64,000 bases of DNA, taken from NCBI GenBank assembly GCA_905178155.1, contig CAJINV010000005.1, positions 6,249,207 through 6,313,206 on the forward strand, in the 5' to 3' direction. Shown here piece by piece: positions 41 to 59,400 of the stretch. Source of the stretch: Amoebophrya sp. A120 (lineage: Eukaryota > Protista > Dinoflagellata). A model generated the notes under the pieces. The model made no database searches. It was not told the origin of the DNA and saw only the letters and a list, made by a program, of their open reading frames with translations. Each line of letters starts with the position of its first letter. Positions within the stretch are counted from its first letter, which is position 1. A program made the position numbers and the translations under genes.

Positions 41-3000
41 TCATCGTCGTTTATGCAGAAAGCAGACCGAAACGCACTCAACTTCATGCGGAGGTGTAAC
101 GTGCTCTATTTTGGCGATCATGGTACTTACTCCTGCTGCATCAAGAGAAGGGACAAAAAAAGCTGTATAAGCATGCGAAAAACCCGCATGACATTTTTGA
201 CAAATTGTATTTATTTTCCCAAAAGCTGCCAGCAGTGTGGGAGCGGCACACTCACTTCCCCTCCATACTGCGCTGTCCGTTGGCTCTTCGCCCACTGTTC
301 CGAGCATGGAAGACGCGGTCTGATCGCCGTTGCTTGTGGTGCCTTCATATCCTGTGCAAAAGTATCGCACTCGTACTAATTGCGTTCATGCAGTCTTTAT
401 TTCAAGGCAAATCCGCATTACGAATTTAATTTGTAGTGCTAAAGTCAGTTTGTAATGCATTTATATATACGAGTGCGATGCTTTTGCACTGCATACTTCA
501 GTTGCTCCTGCCCCCGCACTAGGGGCGCCGACAGCGGAGAGGAAGCTGGGCTTCGAAGGTAAGCGCAACGGCCCCAAGTCCGCTGCGGACCCGAGTCCAG
601 AGGAAGAATCGCGCTGTCGCCCCTGGTATCCAAAAAAAGAACTGTGCATAGAGTAACTTTGTAAAGGAAGATGAACAGCATCACACATTCGTTTTGCATT
701 ATTAAACCTGTCATGCGCAGCTACTACGTGGAAACATCACGTATGAAAGTAGCCTACTTATCACGCAGATCCAGCATGACAAGTGTATATAGTTTTGCAC
801 CTTCTGCATCACAGAGTTACACATACACTCACATAGTTTTTTTCTTGCATACCTGGTACATCAACAACGGGAGTTCAGAAATTTTCACCTCTTCGACCTG
901 CTCTACCGCGCCGAACTTGTTGGAAGTGGAAGATTGATGTGGCCGCTGCTGTTGTTTTAGTATCCCGTCCGGGTTTATCTCTTCTGCTGGGTCTTCCACA
1001 GTGCTTTGCAGTTTTTTCCGCAATGATCCCGCAGGCTTGGCGTCCATCGCCTTGATCAGCTATGCAATACCAATTTGCCGCACATATACAAGATGCATCA
1101 CAAATTTCCGCAATTTGGAGTGTTAGAATTGTCATGCTGAACTAACATTGGAGCCAAGTTTTGTCATGCAGCGACCGCATTTGTACGTGTACGGGAACTT
1201 TACTGTGGATATCAGCGGTAAAAGAATCACTTCTGTGTGGACGGAGGATTTCATTTCCAACGTGATGTTCATTTTCAGAAGTATCAACTGCAAAAATGTC
1301 TGGGTCTCCTGGAACTTTGCTCGACTTGTCATGCAGGTTTTCCATGACCCATATGATCTGTAATGGAGGACCTAGCATGACAGATTCCGCGAGATCACTA
1401 TCATGCCTATCCTGCATGAGAAACTGCCTCTCAACTTGATCAAAAGTGGACAGCATTTGGTAATCATGCAACACAGATTTTCATTTTTGCCGCGTGATTC
1501 AGATTTAGCATCACAAGTTCCAACCTTCCAGACCCAGACATTTTTGCATTTGATAAGAAGACCGTATTTACCAAACTCCGCTTTAACCTGCATCGCTTCC
1601 GGACTATCGAATGCAAATATGTCTGGGTCTGGAAACTTGTGATGCTAAAATGTGACTGGTGGGCGGACTGCAATACGCAGCCAAGCATGACAAATTTTTC
1701 AACTACTACTGTGTTTCGTTTTCCGCATGGCAGACTGCGTTTTTGCATGACAGGCAAGAGGCCATTTTCCTGCTCATGCATCACAGATTTATGAGTCATG
1801 CCAGACAAGCATGACAAAGTTGCATTCTTCCAGACCCAGATATATTTGCATTTGATACGGCCGGCTGTAAATCAATTCCAGTATGACCTCGTCCTTTGGC
1901 TTTTCGAAGCCGAGTTTCTCGTAGAAAAACAGTGCTGAAGCGAGCAAATCCGGCGTCAAATCTTTCTTCGTCGCCACCGTCGACCCTGCAGCAGCGGTGT
2001 ATGACCTGCGAAAGTGATATCGCATTCGCACTCGTAGTTGTATTGCAATACAAATTAGCTCAGCGTGGTGTTGGTGACAAATGGAATAATTTCTCATGGT
2101 GAGTTCGCTTGAAGAAGAAATTTGTCTTGCATGACTGCGATTATTAATACGACTACGATACAACTTTTGCACCGAATACGGTGGCAGCAGCTACAACTGC
2201 TCCCCCTCCTGCTGCGCCTCCGGGCCCGCCCGCAGTGATATCGGTCACCACGGCGTTCTCCGGGCTGGCTATGCAAGAAAAAAACTGTGTAAGCGTAGCT
2301 TTGTAATGCAGGACATGAAACAGAGTTGCGCCTGTCATGCCAGACAGCCATGTTGAGTTCCTCTTTTCATATGTGTTATCCCTTACAAGCTGCGCATGAT
2401 AGGTTTTCTCTGTCATGTAGAGCAAATCTGTGATGCTGTCAGCCAAAGATAGTTACACTAACACAGTTTTTTTCTTTGATACTGGCGGACAGGCAGCTGA
2501 TGTTCGGACGGTAGAGGGAAAAACACAAGTCTTGAATGCGCCAATCCTCTTCAGCGATGTGCTGCAGAAAAAGCGCGCAATCTTCGTGCTGCCACATGCA
2601 GCAGTCCAGCAGGGGCAGCAATTCCTTCTCTAGCAAATGAGCGTTTGCGGGTACGGCAACCTTCGCAGCAGCTGCGGGAGTGCCGTTCACCGATCTGTTC
2701 AGGAAGTTGGCGCTGTCTTTCGCTTCGTCCGTCTGTTCCTGCTGGTCGCTAAAACCGACAAAGGGACTCGGGTACACATCACACAGCATCACCCCTGCGT
2801 CACACCGTCCGTTCCCGTGCAAAGTAATCCAGACCTTGTAGAACTCAACCTACAATATGGCGTTCTCAAATGTTACACTCTCAACTGTAATGCAAGAATG
2901 GCAAAAGTGAAAGGGGCACGGTTACCCCTGCTTTTGCATTACATTTACAGGTTTGGAGCAGATTGCAATACATTCTAGCGCATCGAGAACTTGTCATGCG

Positions 3001-5042
3001 AAAGAGGCTTGATCGTGTGAAGGGTGATAGTGTTTTTGCACGACAAATCACGTAACATTTGAGAGTGTAACGGGTTGAGAACCCCGTATGCAGGCACCCC
3101 TTATTTGGGTTTGTGTCCGTGGCCCTCAGCTTCGCCGAGGTACTCTATGCAAGAAAAAAACTGTGTAAGTGTAACTCTGTAATGCAGAATATGCAACAGA
3201 GTTACTCCTGTCATGCCAGACAGCCATGAAGTCCTTTTTTCATGTGTGTTTTCCCTTACAAGCCAGGCATGACAGGTTGTCGCTGTCATGTAGAGCAAAT
3301 TTGTCATGCTGGCAACCAAAGAAAGTTACACTCACACAGTTGTCTTTTTCTTGGATATACTCCTCCCGCTGATCAGTTGGTGGATCTGCTCGAAAGAGTT
3401 CATGTTGCTGTATCAAAAGGAAAAATCCCTCCTCCCCATATCGAAAACGAAAGTTGTGATGCTGTATTTGAGTACACAAATCGATTTGTCTTGCTAGAAG
3501 GCCAAGAGCCGCAGCTGTGGTCTGGTTTGCAGGCAATTTGTCATGCTGTTTCAGACTTCCGGCTGCCTCCTGTCATGCTGAAAGTGCAAGGCTTTCCCAC
3601 ATCACCACCCAGTAGTACAGTGTCTACATCTTTTCCCTTCTAGCATAACAAAGCTGATTTGTGACCACAAATCTGCATTACAGATTTCCGTTTTGATATG
3701 GGGAGGTGGGATTTTTCTTCTTGATATGCTGTTTTCGCACTTTTCGTAAAACTTCCGAATGTCCCGCAGCGAACCCAGGTGCGGGTGCGGATTCCACGGT
3801 ATCGCGCGAGATTCGATCTCGATGCTGGACATCGCAAGAAAAAAGTGTTTACAGTTACACATATGTCAATTCAGCAACACAAATTTCTCTAGATCAGATA
3901 ATGCAGAAATCCGACGGGAAAACACGTACGAAGCCAGGCTCCTATGCATATCTGGCATGACAGAGCTTGTCTGTCTTGCTTGGTCTGCATAGACTATGAC
4001 TATGTGTAACACTTTTTTCGTACGATAGTGGACTGCTGGGCTTTCGCGGAGCCGCGAGGGGAAGCTGTTGACCCCGACGCAGAAGCCGGACTCGCTGTCG
4101 TCTCTAGCCTTTCACTGGTTGAGGTCTCTCCGATATAGACGCAGTAGGACAAATTGTTTTCGAAGAGATGATGTGCAGTGGAAAGGTTGCAACATCAGCT
4201 TGTCGTTGGGCAAAAACTACACCATCTCGCAACAGAAACTCACACCGCAGGTGAAAGAGAGTGACGTTTTTCGTATACGTAGTAAATTGCAACCGACGTT
4301 GATGTCAAGTTCAATTGTAGTTTGCGCATGCCAATTTTTTTCAGTCAGTGCATTTCTTGCATTTGTGTTGCTCAACGTGCGTATTACCGGGTACAACATT
4401 TTTACCACTGTTCCATAACAACGCGAACAGGTTTGCGCAAAAATCCAACTGCTGCAGGGTGATGGACGGAAAGGCCTGCTCCAGGGGCACGTTGCTGTTT
4501 CCCAGCCAGTCGACCGGGTGCATGACCGGCTGTTTTTTGTTCCGGAGGTTGTTCACCAAATCGCGATATGCTTCGGGACTCAGCAAGGACAAGGCGTCAC
4601 TCCCGCCCGCTCCCGCGCCGGCCGCAAGGTCGGCGGCGGTTTGGTCCCGCGAGTTGGAGCGGGAGCGCGCCATCTGGTGGCCTGGGGTATATGAAATGTA
4701 AAAATGTCTGGGTCTGGAAGATTGCAACATGTCATGCTAAATCTGCAGCATGCAAGAATCTGTGTTGCATGATTACCAAACGTCGTCCAGTTTTGACCAA
4801 GTCGGGAGGGAGTTTCTCATGCAGGATAGGCATGAGAAAGGTCTCGCAGAATCTGTCATGCTAGGTCCTGCATTCCAGACCTCATGGGTCATGGAAAAGC
4901 AGCATGACAAATCGCGCATTCTTCCAGACCCAGACATTTTTGCATTTGATAGGGTAGCGCCAGCTGCAGAGCCTGCTCCTCCAGGCGGCTGCAACCGCTT
5001 GGCCCCGAACGCAGGTCGAGAAGAGGTGGCCGCGGAAGCCAT
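41..5042 (-). CDS. Hypothetical protein interrupted by 13 introner elements; 3' end uncertain
   Basis: ATG at 5042 (MASAATSSRP). Removing each TIR element plus one DR joins the ORF-track fragments into one frame (e.g. LPLLMYQ|GRQRDSS, AGATE|GTTSNGD). No domain recognised. Confidence 0.7.
348..495. mobile_element. Introner family A (TIR TATCCTGTGCAAAAGTATCG)
   Basis: About 28-bp imperfect TIR, DR cttca/cttca. Confidence 0.9.
627..851. mobile_element. Introner family B (TIR TATSCAAGAAAAAAACTGTG)
   Basis: DR cctgg/cctgg; readable as GT-AG on the minus strand. Confidence 0.9.
1061..1211. mobile_element. Introner family C
   Basis: DR tcagc/tcagc; reverse-complement homologue at 35418-35571. Confidence 0.85.
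1282..1555. mobile_element. Introner family D1 (TIR TATCAAATGCAAAAATGTCTGGGTCTGGAA)
   Basis: DR agaag/agaag. Confidence 0.9.
1605..1857. mobile_element. Introner family D2
   Basis: D-type TIR, DR cggac/cggcc. Confidence 0.88.
2000..2178. mobile_element. Introner, diverged family A
   Basis: Degenerate TIR, DR cggtg/cggtg. Confidence 0.8.
2270..2481. mobile_element. Introner family B
   Basis: DR ctggc/ctggc. Confidence 0.9.
2856..3088. mobile_element. Introner family E (TIR TATGGCGTTCTCAAAYGTTACACTCTCAA)
   Basis: TIR clear, DR degenerate (tacaa/tgcag). Confidence 0.82.
3146..3357. mobile_element. Introner family B
   Basis: DR tactc/tactc. Confidence 0.9.
3411..3726. mobile_element. Introner family F (TIR TATCAAAAGGAAAAATCCC..CCCCATATC)
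   Basis: Long TIR, DR tgctg/tgctg. Confidence 0.9.
3830..4027. mobile_element. Introner family B-like (B2)
   Basis: TIR catcgcaagaaaaaagtg / cactttttt..cgata, DR ctgga/gtgga. Confidence 0.78.
4134..4385. mobile_element. Eroded introner or non-canonical intron
   Basis: Weak TIR tatagacgca / tgcgtatt, DR tccga/accgg; removal joins NVVPG|ETSTSER. Confidence 0.55.
4690..4951. mobile_element. Introner family D1 (reverse orientation)
   Basis: DR gggta/gggta. Confidence 0.9.
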
Positions 5043-5268: not shown

Positions 5269-6848
5269 TCATGAACAGCGCACAGCTATGATCACACGGG
5301 AAGCAAATTCATGTTCATCTTGCACCGATATGTAATTACGATAGAGCTGGACAGGTACTAGATTTCGGTTTTCCCTGACCGACGGAGGTAGATTTACTTC
5401 GTTATGTAGAACCGTAGCCTGCATTTGACGACGCCGGATGAACATGTTCATCAATCTGATACTGATTATACTCCAAGCTTTTGCATTTCGGTTTCCCGCC
5501 CCGTCGGGGAAATGGAACAAGGAGCTCCAGAACGCGCAGTCGCTACACAAATCATCATTGTCGCTATCTGCATTGTCTTCTGGGGTTTTGCATTTTTTGA
5601 AGGAAATGAAGAACCACTCTTCTTGGAAAAGCAGCCACTCATCTCGTGTTTTCGTTTTCGTTTTTGTTCCTATCATCATTTTTCTGTCATTGTCGCCAGG
5701 TCGTTTGGGTATCATCTTCAAACGAAATCGTTGCTGTATCTGCATTGCTGCAGCGTTCTTGCCGGCCCTGCGTCCGCACTTTTCAGTGCTCATGCGAGTG
5801 ATCGCGATGTCGCCGGTTCGCGTCCTGCGGTATGGCTTGCTCAATTGGAAACGATCTCACTTGGAAAACCTATTTTTTGTGATGCAAATACTGGAGAGAC
5901 TTCGCCCTTGTTCCCTTCATATGCAAGACAAATTTCGCCTGGTTTAGGTTTAGCTTTACACCGTTTCAGTTGCGATTGTTCCAGCTGTGCATGCCATACG
6001 CATCGCCGCCCTCTCCTGCAGCTCTTCCTGCTCATGACTGGTGCCGCGACTGGTACTACCACTACCCCCGTGTGCGTGATGGGAACCAGAACCGGTGCTC
6101 CGGCCATCACCAGAATTCCTGCCGCTTTTGCCGTACGGGCCATGCCGCTGTTCAACATCCCCAGCCGCATAATTCCCCGGCGTCACTACCCGTTCTTTCG
6201 TGACCACGCTATGCATTGCAAATATGTCTGGGTCTGGAAAATTTCAAGATTTCGATTTGTCATGCTAGTCTGGCATGACTCTGCATTCTGTATTGCGCGG
6301 CCACGAACAGCCTCTCTCGCCTGTCATGCAAAAACGCAGTTTCTCATGCGGAATGCGCAGTACAGAAGCTGTCATGCTTGACTGCGCATTACAGTTCACT
6401 TATTGCTCGCTGACTTGCATCACAAGTTTCCAGACCCAGACATATTTGCATTTGATACACGCCCAGACTCACCGACTCCGGCGGCAGCTCGCCTCCCGGG
6501 AGCTGCTGTGCCACGGAAGAAGAGTATGCATTGCAAAAGCATTGCATCGTACTAGTACAAATAGCATTACAAATTTTTTCAGCATGAAAAATTGAATTTG
6601 TCATGCTGTTTTACCTTGGAAAGGACATTTGTCATACATAACTGCAATTAGTACGAGTACGATACTTTTGCACAGGATAAAGAGGAACCAGATCCAACGT
6701 TCGCCAGGGAGGTCCGGGAGGGGGGCGGAAAATTCGCCGCCGGTGGTCCGCTAGCGCCGCTTGTCGTGGTGGTTCCTGCGCTAGTACTGGCTGCGCTCGC
6801 TCCGTACACCGAGGGGCAGCAGCCGGCCCGGGGTATAAACGGGTGCAA
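5269..6848 (-). CDS. Hypothetical protein (2 introners plus a probable intron near 5845-5960); both ends uncertain
   Basis: Frame restored across 6525-6679 and 6210-6457 (GSGSS|SSVAQQ...SLGV|VTKERV). Confidence 0.5.
6210..6457. mobile_element. Introner family D2
   Basis: DR cacgc/cacgc. Confidence 0.9.
6525..6679. mobile_element. Introner family A (reverse orientation)
   Basis: DR aagag/aagag. Confidence 0.9.
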
Positions 6849-7228: not shown

Positions 7229-8877
7229 TCACATACAGTAGAGTAGAATTCCCAATCCGAGCACGCTCAAAACCAGCAACAAGCAGTTTCTCCGCGTTTC
7301 CTTCTTCTTCTTCTCCCGGTTTAGCCGGTCAATTTCACTGGTACCGGCATAGACGTTGTCACTCGTGTCCTGGAGGTAGTGTTCGATGTTCAAAATCTGC
7401 TCTCCCTGGTCCGTCACCACGGTGGCCAGGTCCTTGAAGATTTTCTGCACCTCGCCCACCTGCCCCACGATCCGCTGGATGCCCTGCTGCCGCTCCTGCG
7501 CGATCCGAGAGTTCATGTTCGCGTCCTCTTGCTCCTGCAGATACCGCTGCTGCTGCTCCAGCTGCTGCGCCTGCTGCAGGTAGGAAAACGCACCACCTGT
7601 TCGGTCGTTCGGGTTGCCAAGTTCGTTCTGTGCCGCGCCGCGGTTGCGCACTTGGAGGCCCGTAGTAGGGTCCAGGGAAGTTGTACTGTTGGCCGTTGTT
7701 CCGGCTGTAGTACCGCCGGCGCTGTTCCCGCCGCCGCCGTCGGTGCTTTTCGCGACGTTTTTCGAATGCAGCATGCGATGTTCGAATTCGTCGAGCGAAT
7801 TCTGGACCTGTCGCTGGACAATCTGCATGTTGTGGACTTCTTCCTCGAACGCCAGTTGGGGATTATGCAGCACAAAAGCATCGCATTTCGTAGACATTGC
7901 AATACAAAGTCTTTTAGCAGGGAGAATGGAATTTGCCATGCGGGTTAAGGTTGGAAAGCAGATTTGTCATGCATACCATGCAAGAATTACTAGCACAGCA
8001 CGAGTAAACGATACTTTTGCACATGCTACAGTTTCTCGACGGACAGCTTCTTGTTTCTCGCCAGCCGCTCCCCAGCGAGAGACACCTGCCAGTCGCGAAA
8101 CAGCGACCTGCCGTCTTCGATCAGGCCCTTGCTGTTCAACAGGAAATCCTTAAACGCCACTTCCTTCGGCTTGTACTCGCCCTGGTATCCAATCATTTGC
8201 GAGGTAATCGACGTGGACAAGAGTTCCTCGCGCGCAAGCCGCGCTTCCTCTTGCAGTCGTTCGATGATAGATTTGATGTTCCGTTCGTAATTGGAGGTGG
8301 AGGAAGTGGATTGCTGATGTGTAGTACTTTGTGCAGTACCAGCGGAAAACGAATGAAGATTGTTGCTGTGAGCCACCTGCGCCATCGCGTGGTGCTGCTG
8401 GGCATTGATGACCGGATGTTGTGGAAACGAGCCTCCCGGTGTTGTGCCGCTCGCCCCTGGAAGAACGCCGCCTGTTGGCGGCGCTTGGAGATGGTAAGAC
8501 GCTGCTCCACAACTATGTGAAGATGCTCCTTGGAGTAGTTGTCCGCCGCTGGTGGAAAATGGCCGGGCAGCCGTGCTGGAGGAAGATCCACCGGCCGTGA
8601 AGTTGTGCGTCGTCGTTGCGGCCCCGAAGTTATTGTTCGAACTATGATGTCCAACATGATTATTGGAAGACAAACCTAACAAATCCGGCGTGGTACTAAC
8701 AGGTCCACCCGAAGGAGCCAAGTTCGGCGTGGTGCCTCTTTGGTGTTGATATGAGAAATTCTGTTGCTGGTGCTGGCCTTTTGGGGAAAACAGGGTGCTG
8801 TTGCCACCTCCAGCCCCGGGCCCTTGCTGGTGCTGGTTGGGCGCGTTTATTTGCTGGGTCAGGTTGCGAAAGGACAT
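7229..8877 (-). CDS. Syntaxin (Qa-SNARE, Stx7/Pep12/SYP2-like)
   Basis: SNARE motif IAQERQQGIQRIVGQVGEVQKIFKDLATVVTDQGEQILNIE, basic stretch, C-terminal transmembrane helix; two exons joined SVEKL|AFEEE. Confidence 0.88.
7858..8028. mobile_element. Introner, diverged family A
   Basis: DR cagtt/cagtt with 6 extra nt (ggggat) before the left TIR. Confidence 0.75.
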
Positions 8878-9938: not shown

Positions 9939-11631
9939 TCAAGTCGCGACCCCGAGCATTTGCAGTAAGTTAAATCCGTATTTCAATTCCGGTTTCGAGG
10001 TTCGCGTTGGATCCAGGTAGGCCTGTGTCGCGCTGGTATCCACGTACACATTTCGCTCGTCCCGCTTGTGCATCTTGTCCGTTTCCGCCTTCTCCAACGC
10101 CCCACCGTCGTCCCCGCTATTCTCCTTGTCCCCGTTATCGACCACGGTTTCAAACTTGCGCACCGATTGCGGCTCGCCGGTTTTCTCGAACTCTTCATTC
10201 CTCTCCTCCGGCGTCCGGTTATCGACGCTGGACCGGGAAAATTCCTCGGTCGCCACGCCGTCCGCCTTCGGCGGCTTATGGCGTTCTCAATTGTTACATC
10301 GCCAACTGTTCTTACATGAATTTGTGATGCCAGAATGGCAAAAGTGGAAGGGGGGGCCTGCGCGTCTTGCATGACAGGTTTGGCACAGATTTACACGCTG
10401 TTGAGCCCTCCGAGAATTTGTCATGCGAAGCAGCTTGATCGTCTGGTGGCTCATGGTCCTTTTGCATGACAAATCACGTATACAAGCGAGAATGTAACAT
10501 CTGAGAGCGCCATACGGTTCGTCGTGCGGTTCGGACCCGAGCTCCTCGTAGGTTTTGTATCCTGAGTAAACACGTCCCCACCACATAGTCAAGATGGGCA
10601 ATATGCTAGACAAGTCAGCCAGCTTTGGCTATTGCGCATGACAAGCTTGGCCTCGTATTGTAATCCTGTTTAGCTCGTTTAGCAAGCAGCATCACAGATC
10701 TAGCCTGCTATGCTGACTGGAACATTACAACTTCCAAAACACGACGAGAAAACGCTTCTCATGGGGCTCCGCATGAGAAACACTTTGAGATTGAGCATGC
10801 AGGTTTGCATGACAACTATGGGGTGGCGACGTTTTTACTCAGGGTATTTTGATGTTCGGATTCAGAGTACCGTACGTCGACGGCTTCTTCGGGATATACG
10901 TCGCGCCGGTGAACGGGATGTCCTTTTCCTCCTTGTACAGGTCCGCGTACTATCAACTGCAGAAGTGTCCGCTTCTGGAAGAGTCGGGGCTTGTCATGCA
11001 CATTTTGCATGACCCGTGAGGTTTTCCTTGCTGGTGCTAGCAACACAGATTTTTTGAGAGCCTCTTGATGCTAATTACGCATGAGAAACGCCCTCGCCGC
11101 GTGCCAAGAACTGAGTCCTCTTGCTGCTCATGCAACACAGATATTGTTAGAATCCGCAGACAGCATTACAAGTTCCACTCTTCCAGAGCTAGACACATTT
11201 GCAATCCATACGTACTCGTTGCCCGCTTTGTGGTACACGTTTCGCGAGCCTTTCCCGTGCGCGTTGTGCCCCCCGCTCTTCAACGTCAGGCCGTAGATGT
11301 CCCGCGCGCCCGTATCGTACCGCATGTACCCGTTGTTCTGGTGTTGCAGCTCGGGCGTCAAGGATTCGAACTGGTTCAGCTGTTTCAGCGCCTGGTTCCC
11401 CAGCGCGGTGGCGGAGGAAGCGAGGGTCTTCGCGTAGGTGGAGGAAATCAGGGCGCGCTGGAGGGCGCCGCCGGACTGGTTCACCAGTTCCTCATACCAC
11501 TCCCCGATCGCGGGTGGGTACACGTCGTGCTCGGACTGGGCGCAACCGGGAGGAGAAGCGCCCAACGTGTAGGGGTCCTTCCCGACGTGGGGGGCGCCAT
11601 TTACAAGGGAAACCTCGGAAAGGAAGGGCAT
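9939..11631 (-). CDS. Hypothetical protein (about 300 aa, 3 introners)
   Basis: MPFLSEV...AGNEY|ADLYKE...NPNIK|TYEEL...HDEP|PKADG...LGVAT*, continuous after element removal. Confidence 0.75.
10277..10514. mobile_element. Introner family E
   Basis: DR cggct/cggtt. Confidence 0.88.
10558..10846. mobile_element. Introner family G (TIR TATCCTRWGTAAAAACGTCCCCAC)
   Basis: DR ttttg/ttttg. Confidence 0.9.
10951..11210. mobile_element. Introner family D1
   Basis: DR cgtac/cgtac. Confidence 0.9.
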
Positions 11632-35124: not shown

Positions 35125-36274
35125 TCAATCCTTTTTTCGATTCAGTAACAATACGGTCGCATATGAATAAGTAAACTTCTCGCTCGTCTCGTTCCTTTGC
35201 GTCTCTGCCCCGCCCCGTTTTCTTGGACTCCTCCGCACCAAGACCACCTCATCCCCGCTGACTCGCGGCAATTGCGCTGTTATAGAACCCATGCAATTTT
35301 TCAATCGGTTTCCGCCCCTGCTCGTCCTCGACTGTCGGGTCCGCCTTGTAGTCCAACAATAACTGCGCGAAGTGCCCAAAGCCGGAGGCACAGACGAGAT
35401 GGAGCGGGCGGAGTTCTTATCCACAGGAAGTTTCCCGTACACGTACAAATGCGGTCTCTGCATGGCAAAACTTGGCTTCGATCCTAGTTTAGCATGACAA
35501 GTTTCAAACGCCGAATTGGGGAAATTTGTGATGCATCTTGTACATGTTGTACGGGAAATTTGTATTGCATAGTTCGATCGGAAACACGCCTTCCAGGTTG
35601 ACGTCGACAAGTTTCGTGGCGCCAGAGGTGTCCGCTACCTTATCCGGAGCATCCAGCAGGACCTTTGACAATGTTGTTTTCACAAATAGCTGGCGCAGTG
35701 AAACGTGCGGGCTCTTCTTTTTGTTGGTCTTGTATCACAACATCGGGATCATGATCGGGGATGCAATCTCTTATGCTGGAACAGGAAAAAAAGCGAAACA
35801 TGATCAAGCCACGATCTTCTTACTTACATCAATCCCATCATAGAAATTACTGCACCTTGGCCAGCCGCATCCTGTTTGCGTGCGCCGCAGCGATAAAGGT
35901 TCCCCGCAGGCACCGGGATATCAAATGCGAGGGGTAGACTTGCACGGTGTGGTCTTCTAGCCGGTCCGGGGATTTCGCGGAAAAGGCAACCTTCTCTATG
36001 TTCACGGCCTGGGACAACCGCAAAAACTCCTGGATCACCCTGATCGCCAAAATTTCGCTCATTTCGTTAAACCGGGAAGGCACCACAGGCACGGGCCACG
36101 GGGTTTCCTCGCGCAGAGCTCGTCTGGTCTGCAATAGCTGGAGAAAAACATCCGCCCGGGGCTGGCTGGAGTTCGCGACGCGCTTCGGACCGTCCTCAGG
36201 GTAAGCGGGCTGGTTCTCGACCCGGCCTGGTCGTTTAGGTTTGATTTGATACGTCGAGTAGGAATAACTTTGAG
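35125..36274 (-). CDS. Coding exons of unknown function; possibly the 3' part of the ankyrin gene
   Basis: Open frame 36274-35855 after the acceptor-like TTTAATCAG; further exons around the introner at 35418. Confidence 0.45.
35418..35571. mobile_element. Introner family C (opposite orientation to 1061)
   Basis: DR gttct/gttcg. Confidence 0.85.
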
Positions 36275-48139: not shown

Positions 48140-48219
48140 TTACACTGCGCATCCACCGTTTTTACAGTGCGCATCCATCGTTACAGCGCGCATCCACCGT
48201 TACAGTGCGCATCCACCGT
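48140..48219. repeat. Minisatellite, 4 x about 19 bp (TTACAGTGCGCATCCACCG)
   Basis: Four adjacent near-identical copies upstream of the PP2C gene. Confidence 0.85.
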
Positions 48220-49155: not shown

Positions 49156-51356
49156 TTACACCCCATACGTCGTGTCAATCTTCCGGATCCCGGCGACTGA
49201 GTCATCCCTTAACCCGTAAATCGTCTCAAACCGCTTTCTCTGCCTTTCCTCCTCCAATTTTTGCCTCTTTTCCAACATCTCATCCGTCACCGGCTCCTGC
49301 ATTTCCCCGCCGAGTAAACTGCCACTGCTGCTATTCCCCAACACCCCCTCATCGCTCGCCTCGATGGTTGACGGGGAAAAAACGTGCTCCAACTCGAGCA
49401 CGATCGCGTCCAACTGGTGCAAACTCGGCCCGGAAATTTTTTTCATCACCTCTTTGTACCGCCATCCTCCGTCCTTCTCATTCGCGTCGTAACAGGGATT
49501 GTGCTCGAGGTAGAGGCATTTCAGCTTCAAATTCCACAAGCCCGCTATTCTTTCATCATTTGCCGCAAGTTCGATTTGCTTCTGCTTGGTTGTTTGGTAG
49601 GGCGTTGTTATGGTTGGTGTTGCTATTGCTGGTTGTAGCTGTACTCCTCCGCTGTCGTCCGGTGATTTTCGCTTCTTCAACAATTCCCCGGACGGCGAAA
49701 CTACGGTCGCCGCGGTTAATGCCCTTGCATTTTCATCTCCTTCACTATCCTGCTTGTAACTATAGTGGTAATCGATGTCGATCCCGCACCCGCTCATCCA
49801 CAATTCCTCTAACTCTGACAACCGGAACTGCTTCGGTATTGAATTTATCCTTTTATTCTGGCTAATGTCCAGCGTTTTTAAGTTCGGCAAATAGTGGTCA
49901 GAGAACAAAAACGGACTTCCGCTTTCCGCTCCGTCTGGTGTGGAGATGGGGAAGGGTGGGAGGTTGTTTTCCGATAAATACAGCTGCTCCAATTTCGGCC
50001 CGCAGAGGTTCTCGAAGAACGACGCCTCCCAGTGTTCTAACCGGTTGCACTGGATCGAGCAGATTTCCAAATCGGGGAGAAAGTGCTCGTGTTCATCCTT
50101 CATATTATCATCAGTCATGCCGTTCACCTTCATGGTGGTGATTTTGTTTTTCCCCAACCACAGCTCCTTCAATTTCCGGTATCAAAAGAAAAAGTCCCCC
50201 CTTCCCATATCAAAACGGAACGCAGATTTGTTGTCACAAATCAGCTTTGTCATGCTACACGGGAAAAGATGCGGACTGTAGTGCTGGGTGGCGTGGGGAA
50301 GCCTTGCATCTTCCGCATGATAGGAGGCAGCTGAGAGTGGGAAACAGCATCACAAATTGCCTGCAAACGAGGCCACGACTGCGGCTCTTGGCCTTCTAGC
50401 ATGACAAGTCGATTTGTGACCTCAAATACAGCATCACAAATTTCGTTTTCGATATGGGGAGCGAGGATTTTTCCTCTCGATATCCGGAGGTGGATCACGT
50501 CCTGCGGGATTTCGCGTAGCCGGTTGGCGCCGAGCTCGAGGATTTCCAGATTCTTGAAACACGATAACGCGTTCTCCGGAACCTCTTCTAATTTGTTGGA
50601 CGGGAGGTACCTGATGGGTTGTAGCAAATGAGGGTATAGGATTTAGGAAACAGTTCTGATAGTAGTTTGTCATGCTCAGTAAAAATGCAATCCTGATTTG
50701 TCATGCGCACCACAGCACATCAGAAAGAAAACAAATCTTAATCTATACAGTTTCTTCAGCGTATCCGCAAACACCGGTTTTTTGTCAATCCGGTCCGGGT
50801 CCCCCGCGTCCAAATACCCCAGATATCGGATCCGGTTGAAGCTCAAGTCTAGATGCTCCAGTTTCGGACAAAACTCCAAATTCTCGATGCGTTTTATCGC
50901 GTTTTGATACAACTCCAAATGCCGTAAGTTGCACAAAGTCTCCAACCCCTCGATTTTCTCCACGTTGTTCGCGATGAGTTTCAAAACTTGCAGATTACTC
51001 CCGATGATGTCGAGATTGACCATCTGCTGGATCCTTGCTGTGGACAGAACCAGTTCCGGTTGGTTCGGATCTAAAGGGATGTCCTTCCCCAGAATCGTGA
51101 ACTTCGGCGCGGACTCGTCCTGACATTCCGTGTTCACACCAGCCGCCGGGTTGATCTTAATCGCGTTTTTGGATTCCGTTTTGAGGTTCACGGATTTGTT
51201 GTTGTTTTTCGGAGAGGGAGAATCGGGTATGATGTCTTCGCACGCGAAAAGATCATCGTCGTCGTCTTTGTTTGCGGCGAAAAGCCCGGACCGGTCGACT
51301 TTCACAGACCCAAAGGTCTGGATCATCGGGTTGGGCTTCGGCGGGTTGGCGGCCAT
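49156..51356 (-). CDS. SDS22: Sds22-like leucine-rich-repeat protein (PP1 regulatory subunit 7)
   Basis: Sds22-type LRRs (LRHLELYQNAIKRIENL, LEHLDLSFNRI, LEILELGANRLREI, LKELWLGKNKI) and LRR cap LYLEHNP...YK...LHQLDA; GT-AG intron 50611-50748 plus an introner. Confidence 0.85.
50180..50482. mobile_element. Introner family F
   Basis: DR tccgg/tccgg. Confidence 0.9.
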
Positions 51357-53471: not shown

Positions 53472-56400
53472 CTACAGCAACAACCCCCGACGAATTCCCT
53501 GTGGGTGTCTAACCGAGCTGTTGATCGGCTGATGCTGCCCTGACGGGGGCACTGCTTGTGCTAGTTTCTGGTCACCGTTGTTTTCTACTTGCCCCGATGT
53601 TGAACTAGTACCGTTCATCATTTTCCCGTCCTGGGTCCTCGTCGCCCGCAGCTGCGGATTCAGCTCAAACGCACCGACCTGCAACAGCTTCGCCAAAGAA
53701 TCCCCTAAACTTAGCTTCACGAAGTTGTTGCCCCGACCGTAGTTCGCTTTTCGCATTCTCTTTGCGTGAAGATTGTTGTGGTCATAGTACGGGAAAGAAG
53801 AAGATCCCCACTCGTCGTGGTCATAGTCGTAATTGTCATCGCGAAAGCCGCCGTACCACCTGTCGCCCCGCTGCGTGTTAGTGTAGCGGTTTTCCCAACT
53901 GTCCGCGTGGTGGAAGTGCGGCCTTTCAGGCTCCCGACTCGGCGCCGTATAGATCAGCTTCCAATCGAATTTTTCCTCCTCGGGGTTGATGATGGTAACG
54001 TCTCCAGCAGCAAGATCTGCAGCTTCTTCATCCAATTTGGCAAGTTCTTCTGGAGAAGTAGATTTGTTCGCTGAAGATCCTTTTCTGCTTCCCCCGTCAG
54101 AAACTTGTATCCTTCCATACTGGAACATCACAGTGATCTCCCGACTCGCGGTCAAGAAGGAACTACCCTGCTTGTGTTGCCGCTGTTGTTGCGGAACCAA
54201 TTGCTGTCCACGACAAATCTCGCTCGGGCGCAGCAAGGGACTGGTGGTCGGACTGGGGCTTCTGCTGCGGAGGAAAGAAGTTGCGCCCGTAGCACTATCC
54301 CTGGAAGCACTTGCGGATAGAAAAGGTCGCTGGAGTTGCTGTTGCGGGGACGCTGTCGCTGTAATGGCAGGAGCACAACTTGTGGAGACCACGTGACTCG
54401 TGGAAGTTGGTTGCGGCCGAAAATCCTCCACGCTCGCCTTGGTCTTGAAGAACTGTGTTGTGAACTTCAGAGAATCTGTCGTCGTTGTATCCCCAGCCGC
54501 TTCAACATCATCTGCAGCGTCACTTGTTCCAGTCAAATTCAAATCGAAATCCTCCACGACAACGTGCCACCCGGTGGGGACATTGTGCTCGTAGAACCCA
54601 ATCATGATCTTGCTGCGCGTGAACATCAGACCGAGGCCTATCAAATGTAAAAATGTCTGGGTCTGGAAGGTTCTGAGACTTGTCGTGCATGTTTTGCATT
54701 GGCCATGATGTCTGTGATGCATGCCCTAGCATCACAGATTTTTTGAGGGCTTCGCGATGCCTATTCCGCATGACAAATTCCCTCTCCGCGTAGCAAAAAT
54801 TGCATTCCCTTTGCTGCTCATGCAATACAGATGTTTTTGGAATCCAAATTCAGCATCACAAGTTGCATTCTTTCAGACCCAGACATTTTTACATTTGATA
54901 AGGCCGGAACGTTTGCCATTCGCGAAGTTCCCGACGAACCACCTGAGGAAGATTTTTTTAAAGAAAGACTAAAAGTTTTTGATTTTGTTCTTGATTCTAG
55001 CATCAGAAAAACAATGCGTTGTTGCAGCACGATGGCACATCTTGCGACAAAGACTTCACCAGAGAAGAGGAAGATGACATCAATAGAACGCAGAGTTATT
55101 TTGCAGACATTGTCATAGTACCCTAGATCCCCCAAGCGCAGTCTCCCCTTCCCATGCGGCACGACCTCCTGAGCGGTCGCATAGGAGCCGTCATGCAGTC
55201 CTCCACCCGGATGACGCGGCGCACCAGCAGCAGCCGTTATTTTCCCAACGAAATCAAACTTGGAAGAGAAACTGCCTACACGGAGGTCAAAGTTCAAAAG
55301 CTTGTTTTGTTGTTGAGTACTACCCGCCGTCGCGTATGAAGATCCTTGCTCTGCTTTCTGAAACGATTTCTCATACTGCCCAATCAACTTGTACAACTCA
55401 TCGGGCGAGGTAAACGAGTCCACATTCGGCCACGAATTCCCCGTTTCCGTCCAGGACAAATTGTTGCTGCTGGCTGAAGCAGAACTTTGCCGGTACTGTT
55501 TTTCTTGGTTGAAGATAAGAAAGTCTTGGAGAATTTGCAGGAGATACGGTGATTTGGTGCTCGTTTCAAACCAGGTGGTTAGTTGCTGTACTGGTACTGG
55601 TTGCTGATGTTGCAACTCTTCCATCACAACATCGCAGACCGACTTCGGGGCACAAGATCTTGCCGTGTAGCAAGAGGCCGCAGCTTCGCTGGCCGGCGGC
55701 GTACCATATTGGGATCTAGTACTCGCGTCATCTTCTTCATACGACAGCTCGAAGGGGTGGTCATTTGCTTGTAGTTCATGAGAAACAGCTGCACCGGCTA
55801 CTGCTGCGAAGCCCAAATCCACATCGGGCAGACTGGATTTGCTTAAACTCACCGCCGCGGGTGGTAGGGAAAAAGGCGCGAGCAACGGACTTCTCGGGCA
55901 AGAGGAGGAGGGACCAGTAGCTGCTAGTCCAACTCTGGAGGCCGCGCCACGACTGGAAGAAGATGACTCGACAACATTTCGCTGACGTCCACCATTTTTC
56001 CGCTGTAAAAGACCGCTGAAGAAATTCGCAGACAACAAATTATGATGATCCACCCCGCTGTATGATCTATTGCCCGCGAAGGTCCTCGTCCCCCCTGTTG
56101 TTGTCGAAGCCAACCGCAAAGTTCGTACCAGCACTGGGAAGTCAATCATCGATAGCTTGATTAACTGGTCCGCGGATTCCGGTTTCTTCAAGCTAAAATA
56201 CAGGTAGGAATCGTTTTCTCTCTTCAAGTAGGGGAAGATCCGGTGCAAATCGGAAGTTTTGGACGCATTTTTCCACTGTTGCGGGGTCACCTGCCCGTAC
56301 GTTCTCCGCAAAAAAGCGAACCGGGCTGCGAGCTGCCACCAGAGCTGGGATTCAAAATCCTGGAATAGTATTGAAGAGTGGCGCCGTGGGGGATGAGAGG

Positions 56401-59400
56401 TCCGAGACATCATCTTCTTCACAGCGGGGTGTTCGTCTCCTGTTACACTAGTGGCCTCTTTCCCCGCGGTGGCTTGACGCTGCAGCTCGTCGGAGGAAGT
56501 CGCAGTTGTAGCGAGCATCTCCGCGAGCTCTTTCCAAGGTTGCGGCTTCAGAGAATTATGTAGTCCTTGTTGCTGCCCGGATGTTGTTGAAAAATACTTC
56601 TGCTGAAACAGCGTGTTGGAGGAAAATTTGTACGCTTCGTCCAGCTTGAAAAGTTTTTCCAGCCGGTTCGCATTGAACCTTGTCTGGTGCCCGTGGTCGC
56701 CATCTTGTTCTCCTCCATCACCATGATCGAGAATCCCTTGCCATAATCTTTCTATCTTCTCTGCCTCTGCGTCCAGCCACTCCTGCGTCATCTCTGCTAC
56801 AGTGGGGATCTTGGAGAATACTGCCGCTTTATTGCTCTTCCCTTCAGATGGAAACAGCCAGTGGGAGGAGGAAAAATAACCGTCTTCTTGCTCTTCTCTC
56901 TCTTTGTTCCCATCACGCGGTAGTTCTGGCGTAGAAGCCCGGTCTGGTTGTTCTGAAGATTGCACACTTTGATCCGCCAATAGAGAACTTGCGTCACCCG
57001 TGCCGAGCAAAGTGCTTCGGCTCCGCGACAGATCTTCCAGGAACAACGCCTCCGATTGTTCCCTGGCGTAAAAATACTCCTCCACCGAACACATTTCCTC
57101 CTTCTTCTTCGTAGAAAAAAACCCGCTCGGGTGCGACACGGCCATCCCCTGGAAGTCGTGGTCTGACGAGAGCCTCGGCTCCAGGCTGAGAAACTTCGGG
57201 TTTCGGGAAGAGCTCTTTTCTTCAAAAGAGGAGCTAACGGAGGACGTCGCTGGGGTGCGCTATGCATTGCAAAAGCATCGTACTTACTAGTATGACTTGC
57301 ATCACAAATTTGTTCCACCTGGCAAATGGAGTTTGTCATGCTGAATTACCTAAGTCAGCTCGTGCAAAAATACTGGCTTTCATACGAGTGCGATACTTTT
57401 GCAGTGCATATGCGCCACGTTTTCACGATAACCTCGTTCGACGGAGCGGAGAGCAGATTTAGAGGGATTTGTTGTTCTTGTTCCTTTTCGACGGCGGGTT
57501 TTTGAAGAGAATTCAAAGCAGAATAATGCAGCTGTTCTTCTCGCGGAAAAAGGTTGCTCATCCACGTCTTTTGCGCGAAAGCATGGTCCTCTTCCGCAGG
57601 TCTTATTTCTGCGAAGTCAACAACATCCGTCGCTTGCAGTTCTTCCACCATACCTCGCGTCAGATCCGCAACAGAAACTCCGATTTGCCCGAGAAATTTC
57701 TGCAGTTCCCGCACCCCAATCTCCGCAACGTGTTTCAAAGCGTTCACCTCCATTTCTTCGGCGGATAAAAAAGATGCCGTCGAGGACAACTTTTGGTCCT
57801 TGTCATCTTCTGCTGGTAGAAGATCTTCACTTCCTGCGAGGACCTCTGGCTGTGGAGCTACAACTGCGTTGGAGACTCTAGCATCTGAAGTGGCGGGACT
57901 CGATCTCGAAGCACTTGTGGGATCCGGGTCACCCCCCTTGATATTATAATCTCCCGACGAAACTATCGGGGGCGATGTGTCTTCTGGTGGTTCTCGTTCC
58001 TCTTGAAGAAGCTGGAGCTGCCCGGCGGTGGTCGGGGGAAATAGTTGCGTGGCTGGGCCTGGCGTCGCCGCCCCTGCTGGTGCGCCAGCAGCATTTGCAC
58101 CAGCAGCAGTCGTAGAAGTTGCATCACCACCAGCTGCTGCATCACTACCAGAAAGCACTTGTTCCACTTCGTCGCTCTGCAGCCTTGATCTCGTTCTTTC
58201 GCTAAAGGAACTAGTCCCTCTGCTGGCCCTTGGTGTGGAATCCAAAGAGGCCGAAATAGATGAACCCCAGAAATCCTCATTGCCTAGCATTGGTTCATCG
58301 TTATTTTTGGGTGTTGCACTCATCTCCCTAGCTGCATCTGGAAGATTGCACTGAAATGTCACGTTGTTGCTGGAGTTTTGCAGAGAGTTAGTTGCGGATC
58401 TTTCCTCGATGTTGCCCAGAAATGTTGGCAAGAGACCAGTACCCCCTGCTGCGCCACTGGCGAGTTCCTGCATCGCGTTAATGCTGCCTTGCCGAGAGAT
58501 TTCGAATTCACTTCCCGCTCCGTTGCGAGTCGTGTCACCCCCGCAGCTCGTACTTCTGGTGAAAGGTTCGGAAGCAGGTGCCGCTTGTCCTCCGTACAGG
58601 TTTCCACCGGATGATACCGTTTTTACGAGAGAACCGCCAAACTTTCTCGGAATAAGTGTTGCGCTCTGAGACGGGGTTCCGGGGCGTGTACTACCCGCTC
58701 CAGGGAACACCCCGTCGCCGATCTTCGGCGTGGTGTGCGCCAGAGTGTTCGGCGCTTCCGTCGACCGGGAGCTGCTCACGTTGCTGGACGGAAGCTGATT
58801 ACCGTAGTTCTCGAAGGTGTAGTAGTGCTGGTGTTCTCCGCCTAAAGAAGTGCTGCGGCGCGAGGAAATTTTTTTACCGGGTAGTTGAGAGGCTGACGAA
58901 AACGGATCTTGTTCTTCGATGCGAGCTTGTTCCTCGGCATTGTCAACATTGTCTGCAGGTGCAGTAATTCTAGTCCCCGTGCCTGCCGTAGAAGCATCCT
59001 CGTCTACAACTTTCGGTGGCACTACACACGGAAATCGTTGCTCTTCTACCACAGTGGCAGAAGTCACGTTCTTGTCTTTAACTTTTTCCCAGGTCGACGA
59101 GTCAAAACCTAGCGGCGATTGCTTCCCGGCCTTTGTACTCATCGTTCCCTGCTGGTGCTCCGCTTCCGATGCAGCGGACGAAGCAGGTGCTAATCCGAGA
59201 TTCTTTCCGCTACCTTCCGAAATCATGCTTGCGTCGCGCGAAAATGTTCTTGAGACCTGTTCTTGACTTTGTAGTTCAATATCGAAAGGTATCAAATCTG
59301 AGTTTATCGTTCCCGCAGAGATTTCGTCCGAGCTCTTGTAATTATCGTCGGAAGAGAGGCCCCGCATCGCAATTTTCAATTCCATGTTGTCTACTCCAGG

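What the first reader, a model, noticed from the sequence alone, without database searches (positions are those of the whole stretch)
348..57410. About 58 TA...TA inverted-repeat elements with 5-bp duplications acting as non-canonical introns
Seen: each element has TIRs that start TAT and end ATA (rare TG/CA variants) and is flanked by a 5-bp DR. Deleting the element plus one DR restores conserved motifs in SUV3 (AGRAG|R), PP2C (GV|CDGH, V|QGTDG), Rad21 and Sds22. Across all six possible registers, only about 10 of 58 can be read as GT-AG or GC-AG. Known: introners are non-autonomous DNA transposons that become introns, and I recall IR/DR-flanked non-canonical introns being reported in Amoebophrya with the excision mechanism unresolved. 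Inference: conserved housekeeping genes depend on a precise excision route that ignores splice dinucleotides and probably reads the TIR stem or the DR.
Basis: partly seen in the sequence, partly recalled or inferred. Interest (0 to 1): 0.9.

Follow-up and report, generated by a model that had tools for sequence, protein, structure and literature searches.

The report
Amoebophrya hairpin introns cut by ruler
Genes of the marine parasite Amoebophrya are interrupted by dozens of small hairpin-forming mobile elements that its RNA lacks although most have no normal splice signals; this class is already published, but the cut is likely placed at a fixed distance from the hairpin, a rule that would make the unknown splicing mechanism testable.

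Summary
Observation confirmed: 58 elements (140-321 bp), 50 with TAT..ATA ends; 41 have an exact 5-bp duplication, 12 one mismatch, 5 more; 9 of 58 can be read GT/GC-AG in any register. The window encodes deposited Amoebophrya sp. A120 proteins, and these are the A120 introner elements of Farhat et al. 2021 (PMC7789003), so the class is known. Transcript-like contigs lack 4 elements that a DNA-like contig or the window keeps; three deposited proteins need removal of element plus 5 nt at 35 junctions. New here: nine imperfect duplications constrain the cut, and only one register fits all: 1 nt before the 5' TIR, 4 nt after the 3' TIR. Three elements with decayed or displaced repeats follow it, so the stem, not the duplication, likely sets the cut. 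U is then invariant at +2 (58 of 58) and GT-AG is enriched (5 of 56, 1.0 expected), hinting at a modified spliceosome. Raw-read proof is lacking. The scan noted similar hairpin introns in other protist genomes.

The parts
348..495 (.). element, family 1 (about 150 bp), exact DR
   Evidence: removed +5 nt in P0003
627..851 (.). element, family 4, exact DR, GT-AG at the -1/+4 register
   Evidence: P0003
1061..1211 (.). element, family 7, exact DR
   Evidence: P0003
1282..1555 (.). element, family 2, exact DR
   Evidence: P0003
1605..1857 (.). element, family 3, DR with 1 mismatch (silent)
   Evidence: P0003
2000..2178 (.). element, singleton, exact DR
   Evidence: P0003
2270..2481 (.). element, family 4, exact DR
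   Evidence: P0003
2856..3088 (.). element, family 6, DR with 2 mismatches; register 4 or 5 (lower gives a stop)
3146..3357 (.). element, family 4, exact DR
   Evidence: P0003
3411..3726 (.). element, family 8, exact DR
   Evidence: P0003
3830..4027 (.). element, singleton, DR mismatch at position 5; register at most 4
4172..4417 (.). decayed element with no DR (0 of 5 match); the only compatible cut outside the stem is -1/+4
4690..4951 (.). element, family 2, exact DR
   Evidence: P0003
6210..6457 (.). element, family 3, exact DR
   Evidence: removal not tested against RNA or protein
6525..6679 (.). element, family 1, exact DR
   Evidence: removal not tested against RNA or protein
7864..8028 (.). 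element, family 1, DR 2 of 5 at the usual place, perfect repeat displaced by 6 nt; contig junction 7859|8030 is unique and equals -1/+4
10277..10514 (.). element, family 6, DR mismatch at position 2; register at least 2
10558..10846 (.). element, family 5, exact DR
10951..11210 (.). element, family 2, exact DR
13844..13993 (.). element, family 1, exact DR
   Evidence: P0004; contig piece ends at its border
14032..14290 (.). element, family 3, in the Rad21 C-terminal domain; DR mismatch at position 4 makes the intronic copy end in AG; register 4 or 5
14356..14634 (.). element, family 5, in the Rad21 C-terminal domain, exact DR
14831..15010 (.). element, singleton, exact DR
   Evidence: P0004
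15095..15305 (.). element, family 4, nested in the GT-AG intron 15088-15478, 7 nt from its AG end
15641..15799 (.). element, family 1, exact DR
   Evidence: P0004
16755..17006 (.). element, family 3, exact DR
   Evidence: P0004
17098..17375 (.). element, family 5, exact DR, GT-AG at -1/+4
   Evidence: P0004
17510..17745 (.). element, family 6, exact DR, GT-AG at -1/+4
   Evidence: contig piece begins at its border
18639..18945 (.). element, family 9, nested in the GT-AG intron 18627-19060, 12 nt from its AG end
19323..19593 (.). element, family 3, DR mismatch at position 3; register at least 3
19663..19812 (.). element, family 1, exact DR
   Evidence: P0004
19877..20121 (.). element, family 2, exact DR
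   Evidence: P0004
22943..23140 (.). element, singleton, DR with 1 mismatch
   Evidence: ORF reads through after removal
25056..25323 (.). element, family 2, exact DR
29265..29533 (.). element, family 2, DR with 1 mismatch (silent)
31104..31259 (.). element, family 1, exact DR, in SUV3
31906..32185 (.). element, family 5, exact DR, splits SUV3 motif QIAGRAG|R
35418..35571 (.). element, family 7, DR with 1 mismatch
39446..39703 (.). element, family 3, DR mismatches at positions 4 and 5 (silent in protein; would fix the register in RNA)
39953..40092 (.). element, family 1, exact DR, ankyrin-repeat gene
40168..40488 (.). element, singleton, exact DR
41006..41156 (.). element, family 1, DR with 1 mismatch, GT-AG at -1/+4
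41231..41384 (.). element, family 1, DR with 1 mismatch
41914..42137 (.). element, family 4, exact DR
43541..43804 (.). element, family 2, exact DR, PP2C
43862..44073 (.). element, singleton, exact DR, PP2C
44240..44510 (.). element, family 2, splits PP2C V|QGTDG; DR mismatch at position 1; register at least 1
45065..45327 (.). element, family 2, TGT..ATA ends, exact DR, PP2C
45385..45540 (.). element, family 1, splits PP2C GV|CDGH; DR with 1 silent mismatch
45783..45927 (.). element, family 1, DR 2 of 5 at the usual place, better repeat displaced by 3 nt; deposited protein fits element+5 at register 4 or 5 only
45972..46223 (.). element, family 3, TAT..ACA ends, exact DR, PP2C
46325..46580 (.). 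element, family 3, TAT..GTA ends, exact DR, PP2C
46613..46873 (.). element, family 2, exact DR, PP2C
47043..47185 (.). element, family 1, exact DR, PP2C
47221..47538 (.). element, family 9, exact DR, PP2C
50180..50482 (.). element, family 8, exact DR, LRR gene
54639..54900 (.). element, family 2, exact DR
   Evidence: removal not tested against RNA or protein
57261..57410 (.). element, family 1, exact DR, in a long ORF
44..5042 (-). host gene of unknown family, 675 aa (P0003), 13 introns, all elements
13684..20425 (-). host gene with Rad21/Rec8 C-terminal domain, 1076 aa (P0004): 11 elements as introns, 3 GT-AG introns (2 with a nested element)
30245..34329 (-). SUV3 RNA helicase reading frame, 2 elements
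43463..47885 (-). PP2C gene, 609 aa (P0001), 11 elements

Best explanation
These are the published introner elements of Amoebophrya sp. A120: small inverted-repeat elements flanked by a 5-base duplication, missing together with 5 bases from transcript-like contigs and deposited proteins, and likely cut out of the pre-mRNA at a fixed distance from their predicted hairpin, probably by a modified major spliceosome. Steps. (1) Insertion as a non-autonomous DNA transposon that duplicates 5 bases (inferred from anatomy; no transposase seen in any element). (2) The transcript folds back so that both ends meet (predicted for most elements, in either orientation). (3) The 5' cut falls 1 nt before the stem and the 3' cut 4 nt after it; since 1+4 equals the duplication length, any insertion site is restored to the base (register inferred from nine constraints). 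(4) The intron so defined always starts N-U-A-U-like, with U at +2, and needs no AG; the stem would stand in for U1/U2AF-type site definition (inferred; U1 snRNA was not detected in A120, PMC7789003). My odds: known A120 introners 0.97; removed at RNA level 0.92; fixed -1/+4 register 0.75; spliceosome rather than another enzyme about 0.55.
For: Identity: exon searches return proteins named Amoebophrya sp. A120 at 100% identity; PMC7789003 section 11 describes A120 IR motifs as TAT + seven less conserved bases + at least three A, with 3-5-nt DRs, as seen here. Removal: run X1 (RNA by a guess) joins 7859 to 8030 with no other letters, while a contig of X5 runs unbroken over 6655-10344; another X1 contig has pieces ending 10271 and starting 11211 with 137 letters between, exactly the two intervening exons (38+99); X1 also stops at the border of a GT-AG intron (18169) and has no depth at 12206-12872 where X5 has 42.6. 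The spliced PP2C model equals P0001 at 609 of 609 residues; P0003 and P0004 need element+5 nt at 13 and 11 junctions; only 4 of 58 elements could be read through without a stop or frameshift. Register k = bases of the upstream copy kept in the exon: 7864 k=4 only and 10277 k>=2 (contigs); 3830 k<=4; 2856, 14032, 45783 k=4 or 5; 19323 k>=3; 44240 k>=1; 4172 k=4 or a cut inside the stem (proteins). Under a random register the chance of 8 of these (2856 left out, as a stop forces it) is 0.0007, 0.004 after allowing six registers, 0.026 without 4172. At k=4, T is at +2 in 58 of 58 and GT-AG occurs in 5 of 56 against 1.0 expected from flanking exon 5-mers (p=0.003 before correction for six registers); AG and G+1 co-occur (Fisher p=0.014). 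All 9 predominant A120 non-canonical motifs of the paper's Table S4 begin N-T and all 9 of A25 begin TT. Both orientations occur (family 1: 7 and 7; family 3: 5 and 3; family 2: 10 and 1). Folding: z below -2 in 54 of 57, median -6.3 (12 shuffles each); at least 10 expected end-to-end pairs in 51 of 57.
Against: No raw reads: the two raw RNA runs laid (X8, X9) put 7 and 6 reads on 20 kb and show nothing. X1 is RNA only by a guess, and true joints were crowded out of the joint table by repeats in X5 (15 rows shown, 2649 not), so the RNA evidence is 2 contigs covering 4 elements. Seven of the nine constraints come from deposited models that were built from transcript alignments to the genome (PMC7789003 section 25), so they are indirect and show one isoform only. 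The stem ends of 4172 were fixed after its cut was seen. [quoted passage not shown] 3 legend). Table S4 depends on where the aligner places a junction within a repeat, so it is not independent. The terminal three pairs are all likely (p>0.5) in only 36 of 57 folds. U at +2 follows from the transposon end alone once the register is fixed, and the GT-AG excess rests on 5 cases; neither proves a spliceosome. No branch point was identified.
Confidence: 0.6

Rival explanations
1. Same fixed cut, but made by a spliceosome-independent endonuclease and ligase that read the stem, as is suspected for the nonconventional introns of euglenids.
For: Neither end needs G or AG (34 different end pairs among 58 at -1/+4); both orientations work; U1 snRNA not detected in A120 (PMC7789003 section 10); euglenid introns pair at fixed offsets (+4,5,6 with -8,-7,-6; PMC4770533 passages) and leave as non-lariat circles (PMC11282704 passage).
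Against: 83 of 89 spliceosomal proteins and U2, U4, U5, U6 are present in A120; the GT-AG excess at exactly this register, and a mismatch that turns one intronic copy into AG (14032), point to spliceosomal preferences; the same genes carry ordinary GT-AG introns.
Confidence: 0.27
2. The duplication itself guides the join (any register within the repeat), or the joins are reverse-transcriptase template switches across a hairpin between short repeats and do not exist in the cell.
For: 41 of 58 elements have an exact repeat, where the register cannot be seen; hairpin plus short repeat is the recalled setting for template-switch artefacts; the paper calls the sites variable.
Against: At 7864 the contig ignores a perfect repeat displaced by 6 nt and cuts where only 2 of 5 bases match; at 45783 the protein ignores a repeat displaced by 3 nt; 4172 has no repeat at all. 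An artefact cannot explain that SUV3, PP2C and Rad21 motifs need the removal and that 54 of 58 elements cannot be read through.
Confidence: 0.07
3. The elements are removed from DNA in some life stage, like the TA-bounded internal eliminated sequences of ciliates (comparison recalled), or X1 is DNA of a strain without the insertions.
For: TA at both ends; X1 is only guessed to be RNA; most joints of X5 were not shown.
Against: X5 contigs run through elements at the same depth as their flanks (6655-10344, depth 42.8); X1 matches the window without a difference over exons, stops at a GT-AG intron border and misses an intergenic bin; cuts lie outside the TA ends.
Confidence: 0.04
4. The insertions have killed the genes, or nearby GT-AG sites are used.
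For: Two elements do lie within GT-AG introns; 17 elements outside such introns were not checked against a contig or a deposited protein.
Against: 35 junctions in three deposited proteins and 4 in contigs remove exactly element+5 nt; frames stay open over up to 11 elements.
Confidence: 0.02

Closest known systems
Introner elements (IEs) among the non-canonical introns of Amoebophrya sp. A120 (Farhat et al. 2021, PMC7789003)
   Same: Same strain by the names of the identical proteins; TAT start, A-run, 3-5-nt DR (5-bp example in Fig. S19 legend), hairpin, mean non-canonical intron length 240 nt, many families, no transposase inside, 29,850 copies reported.
   Different: The paper leaves the border unknown and calls the splice sites variable; here nine constraints agree on one register (-1/+4 from the stem) with U at +2, independent of the repeat and of orientation.
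Nonconventional introns of euglenids (PMC4770533, PMC11282704)
   Same: Inverted repeats bring the ends together, TSD-like repeats at junctions, MITE origin proposed, variable borders, stem at fixed offsets from the cuts, mechanism unknown.
   Different: Different lineage and offsets (+4 and -6 against +2 and -5 for the first paired bases here), purine/pyrimidine border preference there, circular non-lariat products shown there and untested here.
Introners of Micromonas pusilla, Aureococcus and other algae (PMC9860276, PMC11282704)
   Same: Non-autonomous TIR elements whose removal takes the element plus one TSD, with splice sites taken from the element or the TSD.
   Different: Those carry or co-opt GT/GC and AG; here only 5 of 58 are GT-AG at the inferred register.
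IS3EU/GingerRoot DNA transposons (PMC10045372)
   Same: Termini mostly TA..TA and occasionally TG..CA, as here; an integrase-like ORF between TIRs was reported in one A120 introner family (PMC12130899).
   Different: TSD is usually 6 bp there and 5 bp here; no autonomous partner was found or sought beyond the window.

Membership tests
Amoebophrya A120 introner elements | Occurs in the A120 genome | tested here: met
   Window exons match proteins named Amoebophrya sp. A120 at 100%; spliced model equals P0001 at 609 of 609
Amoebophrya A120 introner elements | 8-20-nt inverted repeat starting TAT, seven variable bases, then at least three A | tested here: met
   End profile of 86 ends; 50 of 58 TAT..ATA
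Amoebophrya A120 introner elements | 3-5-nt direct repeat over the exon/intron border | tested here: met
   41 exact and 12 one-mismatch 5-mers of 58; 5 more decayed
Amoebophrya A120 introner elements | Repeated, in families | tested here: met
   9 families of 2-14 members and 6 singletons among 57, best pair 88% identical
Amoebophrya A120 introner elements | Removed from RNA with mostly non-GT-AG borders | tested here: met
   4 elements missing from X1 contigs, 35 junctions in deposited proteins; raw reads not available
Spliceosomal (U2-type) introns | GT/GC-AG ends | tested here: not met
   9 of 58 in any register, 5 of 58 at the inferred one
Spliceosomal (U2-type) introns | Lariat intermediate with a branch-point A; dependence on U2/U5/U6 | not testable with these tools
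   Needs lariat sequencing or inhibition
Euglenid-type nonconventional introns | Stem joining the ends at fixed offsets from the cuts | tested here: met
   Folds and register constraints; offsets differ from euglenids
Euglenid-type nonconventional introns | CAG/CTG at +4..+6/-8..-6 and purine at the intron start | tested here: not met
   Intron ends at the inferred register read N-T-A-T-(C/G); +1 is G 19, A 15, T 11, C 11 of 56
Euglenid-type nonconventional introns | Excised as non-lariat circles | not testable with these tools
   Needs RNase R and debranching experiments
IS3EU/GingerRoot transposons | TA..TA (rarely TG..CA) termini | tested here: met
   definition from PMC10045372 passage
IS3EU/GingerRoot transposons | 6-bp TSD | tested here: not met
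   Removal and duplication are 5 nt
IS3EU/GingerRoot transposons | Autonomous partner with that DDE transposase and the same ends | not tested
   No whole genome held; longest M-started frame inside an element 105 aa, not searched

The most novel reading that the evidence does not exclude
Amoebophrya A120 defines these introns by geometry alone: a TIR stem with the 5' cut one base before it and the 3' cut four bases after it, U at +2 being the only fixed letter. Because 1+4 equals the 5-base duplication, every insertion into an exon, in either orientation and at any sequence, is repaired at the RNA level. This would be a spliceosome (or a new enzyme) that has replaced U1- and AG-based site choice by a ruler, and it would explain how tens of thousands of transposon copies invaded exons unpunished.
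Probability: 0.6. Interest if true: 0.75.

Novelty: already known. Interest (0 to 1): 0.45.

Why it matters
The elements themselves are published, so the finding as stated adds no new system. What may matter is the rule: the excision mechanism of Amoebophrya introners is open, and the paper left the cut position unknown. A fixed -1/+4 register with invariant +2 U is a sharp prediction that existing RNA-seq can test genome-wide on thousands of imperfect duplications, tells where to look for lariats or circles, separates a modified spliceosome from a nuclease-ligase route, and gives a simple gene-finding rule for this genome. It also links to euglenid introns as a possible convergence on structure-defined splicing.

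Tried and rejected
No whole genome was held, so no genome-wide count or transposase search was possible. The run search listed no holder on record as RNA; the raw RNA runs X8 and X9 do not cover this strain's sequence and say nothing either way. Laying the DNA-like run X5 beside X1 filled the joint table with element-to-element joins from other loci. The frame control only fixes the removal length modulo 3: +2, +5, +8 cross 52 of 57 elements and up to 11 in one frame, other lengths 41-44 and 5-7. The exon after the SUV3 junction has no convincing match among solved structures. Homologue searches for three genes found only A120 proteins, so no element-free orthologue from another strain could be compared; the paralogue P0002 aligns without a gap at the four catalytic-domain and C-terminal junctions nearest the PP2C motifs but its DNA was not seen. 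Four imperfect repeats in tested proteins or frames are silent and give no register (1605, 45385, and for RNA-only tests 29265, 39446). Rfam found nothing in the window, so no known self-splicing intron or snRNA family matches. Dropped candidates: 41115-41272 (false pairing), 36386 (three pairings in a palindromic tandem array), 49273 and 61711 (not TA-type). Registers 0-3 and 5 were rejected because each conflicts with at least one constraint. Seven literature searches found no statement of a fixed register; most subscription papers, among them Roy et al. 2023 (only the preprint's listing was seen) and the figures of PMC7789003 (Fig. 3, S19-S23), were not visible and may bear on this.

Full report
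Observation. A scan for TA-type ends, a 5-bp flanking repeat with at most one mismatch and a 30-nt inverted-repeat alignment gave 44 non-overlapping hits and none in 10 Markov-4 shuffles; one hit was a false pairing and was dropped. An end-profile scan with hand curation and one decayed copy found through protein mapping bring the list to 58 elements of 140-321 bp between 348 and 57410, 13,070 bp in all. Fifty have TAT..ATA ends. The 5-mers are identical in 41, differ at one place in 12, at two in 2, at three in 2 and at all five in 1. Nine of 58 can be read GT-AG or GC-AG in one of the six registers. Among 57 elements clustered there are nine families of 2-14 members and six singletons, the closest pair 88% identical; a subterminal 10-mer motif family has 112 of its 121 window hits inside elements. 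Predicted folds are far more stable than shuffles in 54 of 57, and 51 of 57 have at least 10 expected pairs between the ends, although the outermost three pairs are all likely in only 36 of 57.

Organism and prior knowledge. Three exon searches returned proteins named Amoebophrya sp. A120 at 100% identity (P0001, P0003, P0004). Farhat et al. 2021 (PMC7789003; I read the abstract, sections 10, 11, 12, 16 and 25, further passages, supplementary legends S19-S25 and rows of Tables S4, S5 and S7; figures are not held) report that over 60% of RNA-supported introns in A120 are non-canonical, that A120 introner motifs start with TAT followed by seven variable bases and at least three A, with 3-5-nt direct repeats, 29,850 copies in 1,954 families, that U1 snRNA was not detected while 83 of 89 spliceosomal proteins were, and that the border position is unknown and variable. 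The finding is therefore a sample of a published class in the published strain.

Are they removed? In one search the raw RNA runs X8 and X9 did not cover the stretch. Contigs of X1 (RNA by the tool's guess) did. One joins 7859 to 8030 with no other letters, skipping element 7864-8028 plus 5 nt, while a contig of X5 runs through 6655-10344 unbroken. A second X1 contig has pieces ending at 10271 and starting at 11211 with 137 letters between, which is exactly the two exons left when three elements plus 5 nt each are removed (38+99; the 137 letters themselves were not displayed). X1 behaves as spliced RNA: a piece stops at 18169, the border of a GT-AG intron, and the bin 12206-12872 has no X1 depth but 42.6 in X5. 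The deposited proteins agree. Removing 11 elements plus 5 nt each reproduces PP2C P0001 at 609 of 609 residues; P0003 needs the same at all 13 of its introns and P0004 at 11 of 14, the other three being GT-AG introns, two with an element nested near the AG. These models were built from transcript alignments without a splice-site model (section 25), so they are transcript-based but indirect. Only 4 of 58 elements could be read through unspliced. In all, 39 elements have contig or protein support for removal as element+5 nt, 2 are nested in GT-AG introns, and 17 rest on open frames or were not tested.

Where is the cut? With an exact repeat the register is invisible, but imperfect repeats show which copy survives. 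Let k be the number of bases of the upstream copy kept in the exon (all genes are on the minus strand). Contigs give k=4 exactly for 7864 (no shift possible) and k>=2 for 10277. Proteins give k<=4 for 3830, k=4 or 5 for 2856, 14032 and 45783, k>=3 for 19323, k>=1 for 44240, and for 4172 either k=4 or cuts 3-4 nt inside the stem. Only k=4 fits all nine. Under a random register the chance for eight of them (2856 left out because a stop forces it) is 0.0007, or 0.004 allowing for six possible fixed registers, and 0.026 if 4172, whose stem ends I fixed after seeing the cut, is also left out. So the intron starts one base before the TAT and ends four bases after the ATA. Three cases separate stem from repeat: at 7864 a perfect repeat lies 6 nt further out and is ignored; at 45783 a better repeat lies 3 nt further out and its use would give 608 residues, not 609; 4172 has no repeat. 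Both orientations of an element occur and are removed (family 1: 7 and 7).

What does the register imply? At k=4 every intron has T at +2 (58 of 58, against 0-12 for other registers), +1 is free (G 19, A 15, T 11, C 11 of 56) and the 3' end is free (34 end pairs). GT-AG is nevertheless over-represented at this register only: 5 of 56 against 1.0 expected, p=0.003 before correcting for six registers; 5 of the 6 elements ending in AG also start with G (Fisher p=0.014), and in 14032 the one mismatch turns the intronic copy into AG. All nine predominant A120 motifs in Table S4 begin N-T and all nine for A25 begin TT; this is consistent, but an aligner that prefers donor-like ends could produce it, so it is not independent. 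That U at +2 is shared by GT-AG and AT-AC introns and is held in the spliceosome's active site is recalled knowledge, from no call.

Mechanism. Shown: anatomy, families, removal of element+5 nt in contigs and deposited models. Inferred: transposition with a 5-base duplication; hairpin formation; a ruler of 1 and 4 bases from the stem, whose sum equals the duplication and so restores any site. Least certain: the enzyme. I favour a modified major spliceosome (about 0.55 against 0.3 for a nuclease-ligase), because of the +2 U, the GT-AG excess at the same register and the near-complete spliceosome without a detected U1. Against it stand the free 3' end, orientation independence with no branch point identified, and the euglenid precedent, where stem-bounded introns pair at fixed offsets (PMC4770533, abstract and passages) and leave as non-lariat circles (PMC11282704, passages). 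Template-switch artefact, DNA elimination and pseudogenes are each contradicted by the calls above.

Comparison and novelty. Membership in the A120 introners is met on all five features tested. The elements fail the GT-AG test for ordinary spliceosomal introns, the CAG/CTG test for euglenid introns and the 6-bp TSD of IS3EU/GingerRoot, whose TA..TA and occasional TG..CA termini they share (PMC10045372, passages); PMC12130899 (passages) reports diverse A120 introners, one with an integrase-like ORF between TIRs. Strains AT5 and Kv have mainly canonical introns, and U1 was found in Kv (PMC12005148, passages). PMC9860276, PMC11453091, PMC12621601 and PMC12787238 (passages) added nothing on the register. 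Seven searches found no statement of a fixed cut position, but figures and subscription papers were not visible. Earlier notes of this scan describe similar hairpin introns in other protists, one with a 3' site set by position after a hairpin; I had formed my reading before seeing them and did not test them. None is held for this genome.

Verdict. Real, well supported and already known as a class. The added value is a candidate rule for the cut, resting on two contigs and three deposited proteins, which raw reads could confirm or reject at once. Interest 0.45; the ruler reading has a probability of about 0.6 and would deserve 0.75.

Noticed in passing
window 15088-15478 and 18627-19060 (minus strand): Two elements sit inside GT-AG introns of the Rad21 model, only 7 and 12 nt from the acceptor AG, where they would separate it from its branch region: possible twintron-like two-step removal.
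   Followed up: partly
window 5876, 18225, 22313, 24631, 25464, 33124, 33461, 50666, 50697: The subterminal motif of the elements occurs 9 times outside them, several in apparent ordinary introns, two in the SUV3 exon; some canonical introns may be decayed introners.
   Followed up: no
window 36342-37036 and 37070-38350: Two adjacent tandem arrays: 52-bp units that are themselves inverted repeats around a palindromic core, and a 151-bp higher-order unit (8.7 copies) built of 13-bp repeats in both orientations.
   Followed up: no
window 46986-47016 and 47186-47216: About 30 coding bases are duplicated on either side of element 47043 (ALDLANADK twice in P0001, once in the paralogue P0002): a small exon duplication next to an introner.
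   Followed up: partly
window 12100-13220 and 61450-62620: Very GC-rich stretches (60% GC at 12001-14000) with no elements and, for the first, no X1 depth at 12206-12872; perhaps regulatory or another repeat class.
   Followed up: no
window 54629-61062 (minus strand): A reading frame of about 2000 codons with one element near 57261, low-complexity, family not searched.
   Followed up: no
whole window: All genes identified lie on the minus strand, in line with the unidirectional gene clusters reported for Amoebophrya; elements cluster in some genes (13 in P0003, 11 in PP2C) with exons as short as 32-70 nt between them.
   Followed up: partly
window 7232-8979 (minus strand): The gene interrupted by element 7864 looks like a syntaxin/SNARE by eye (C-terminal coiled coil and membrane anchor); label recalled, not checked against Pfam.
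   Followed up: no
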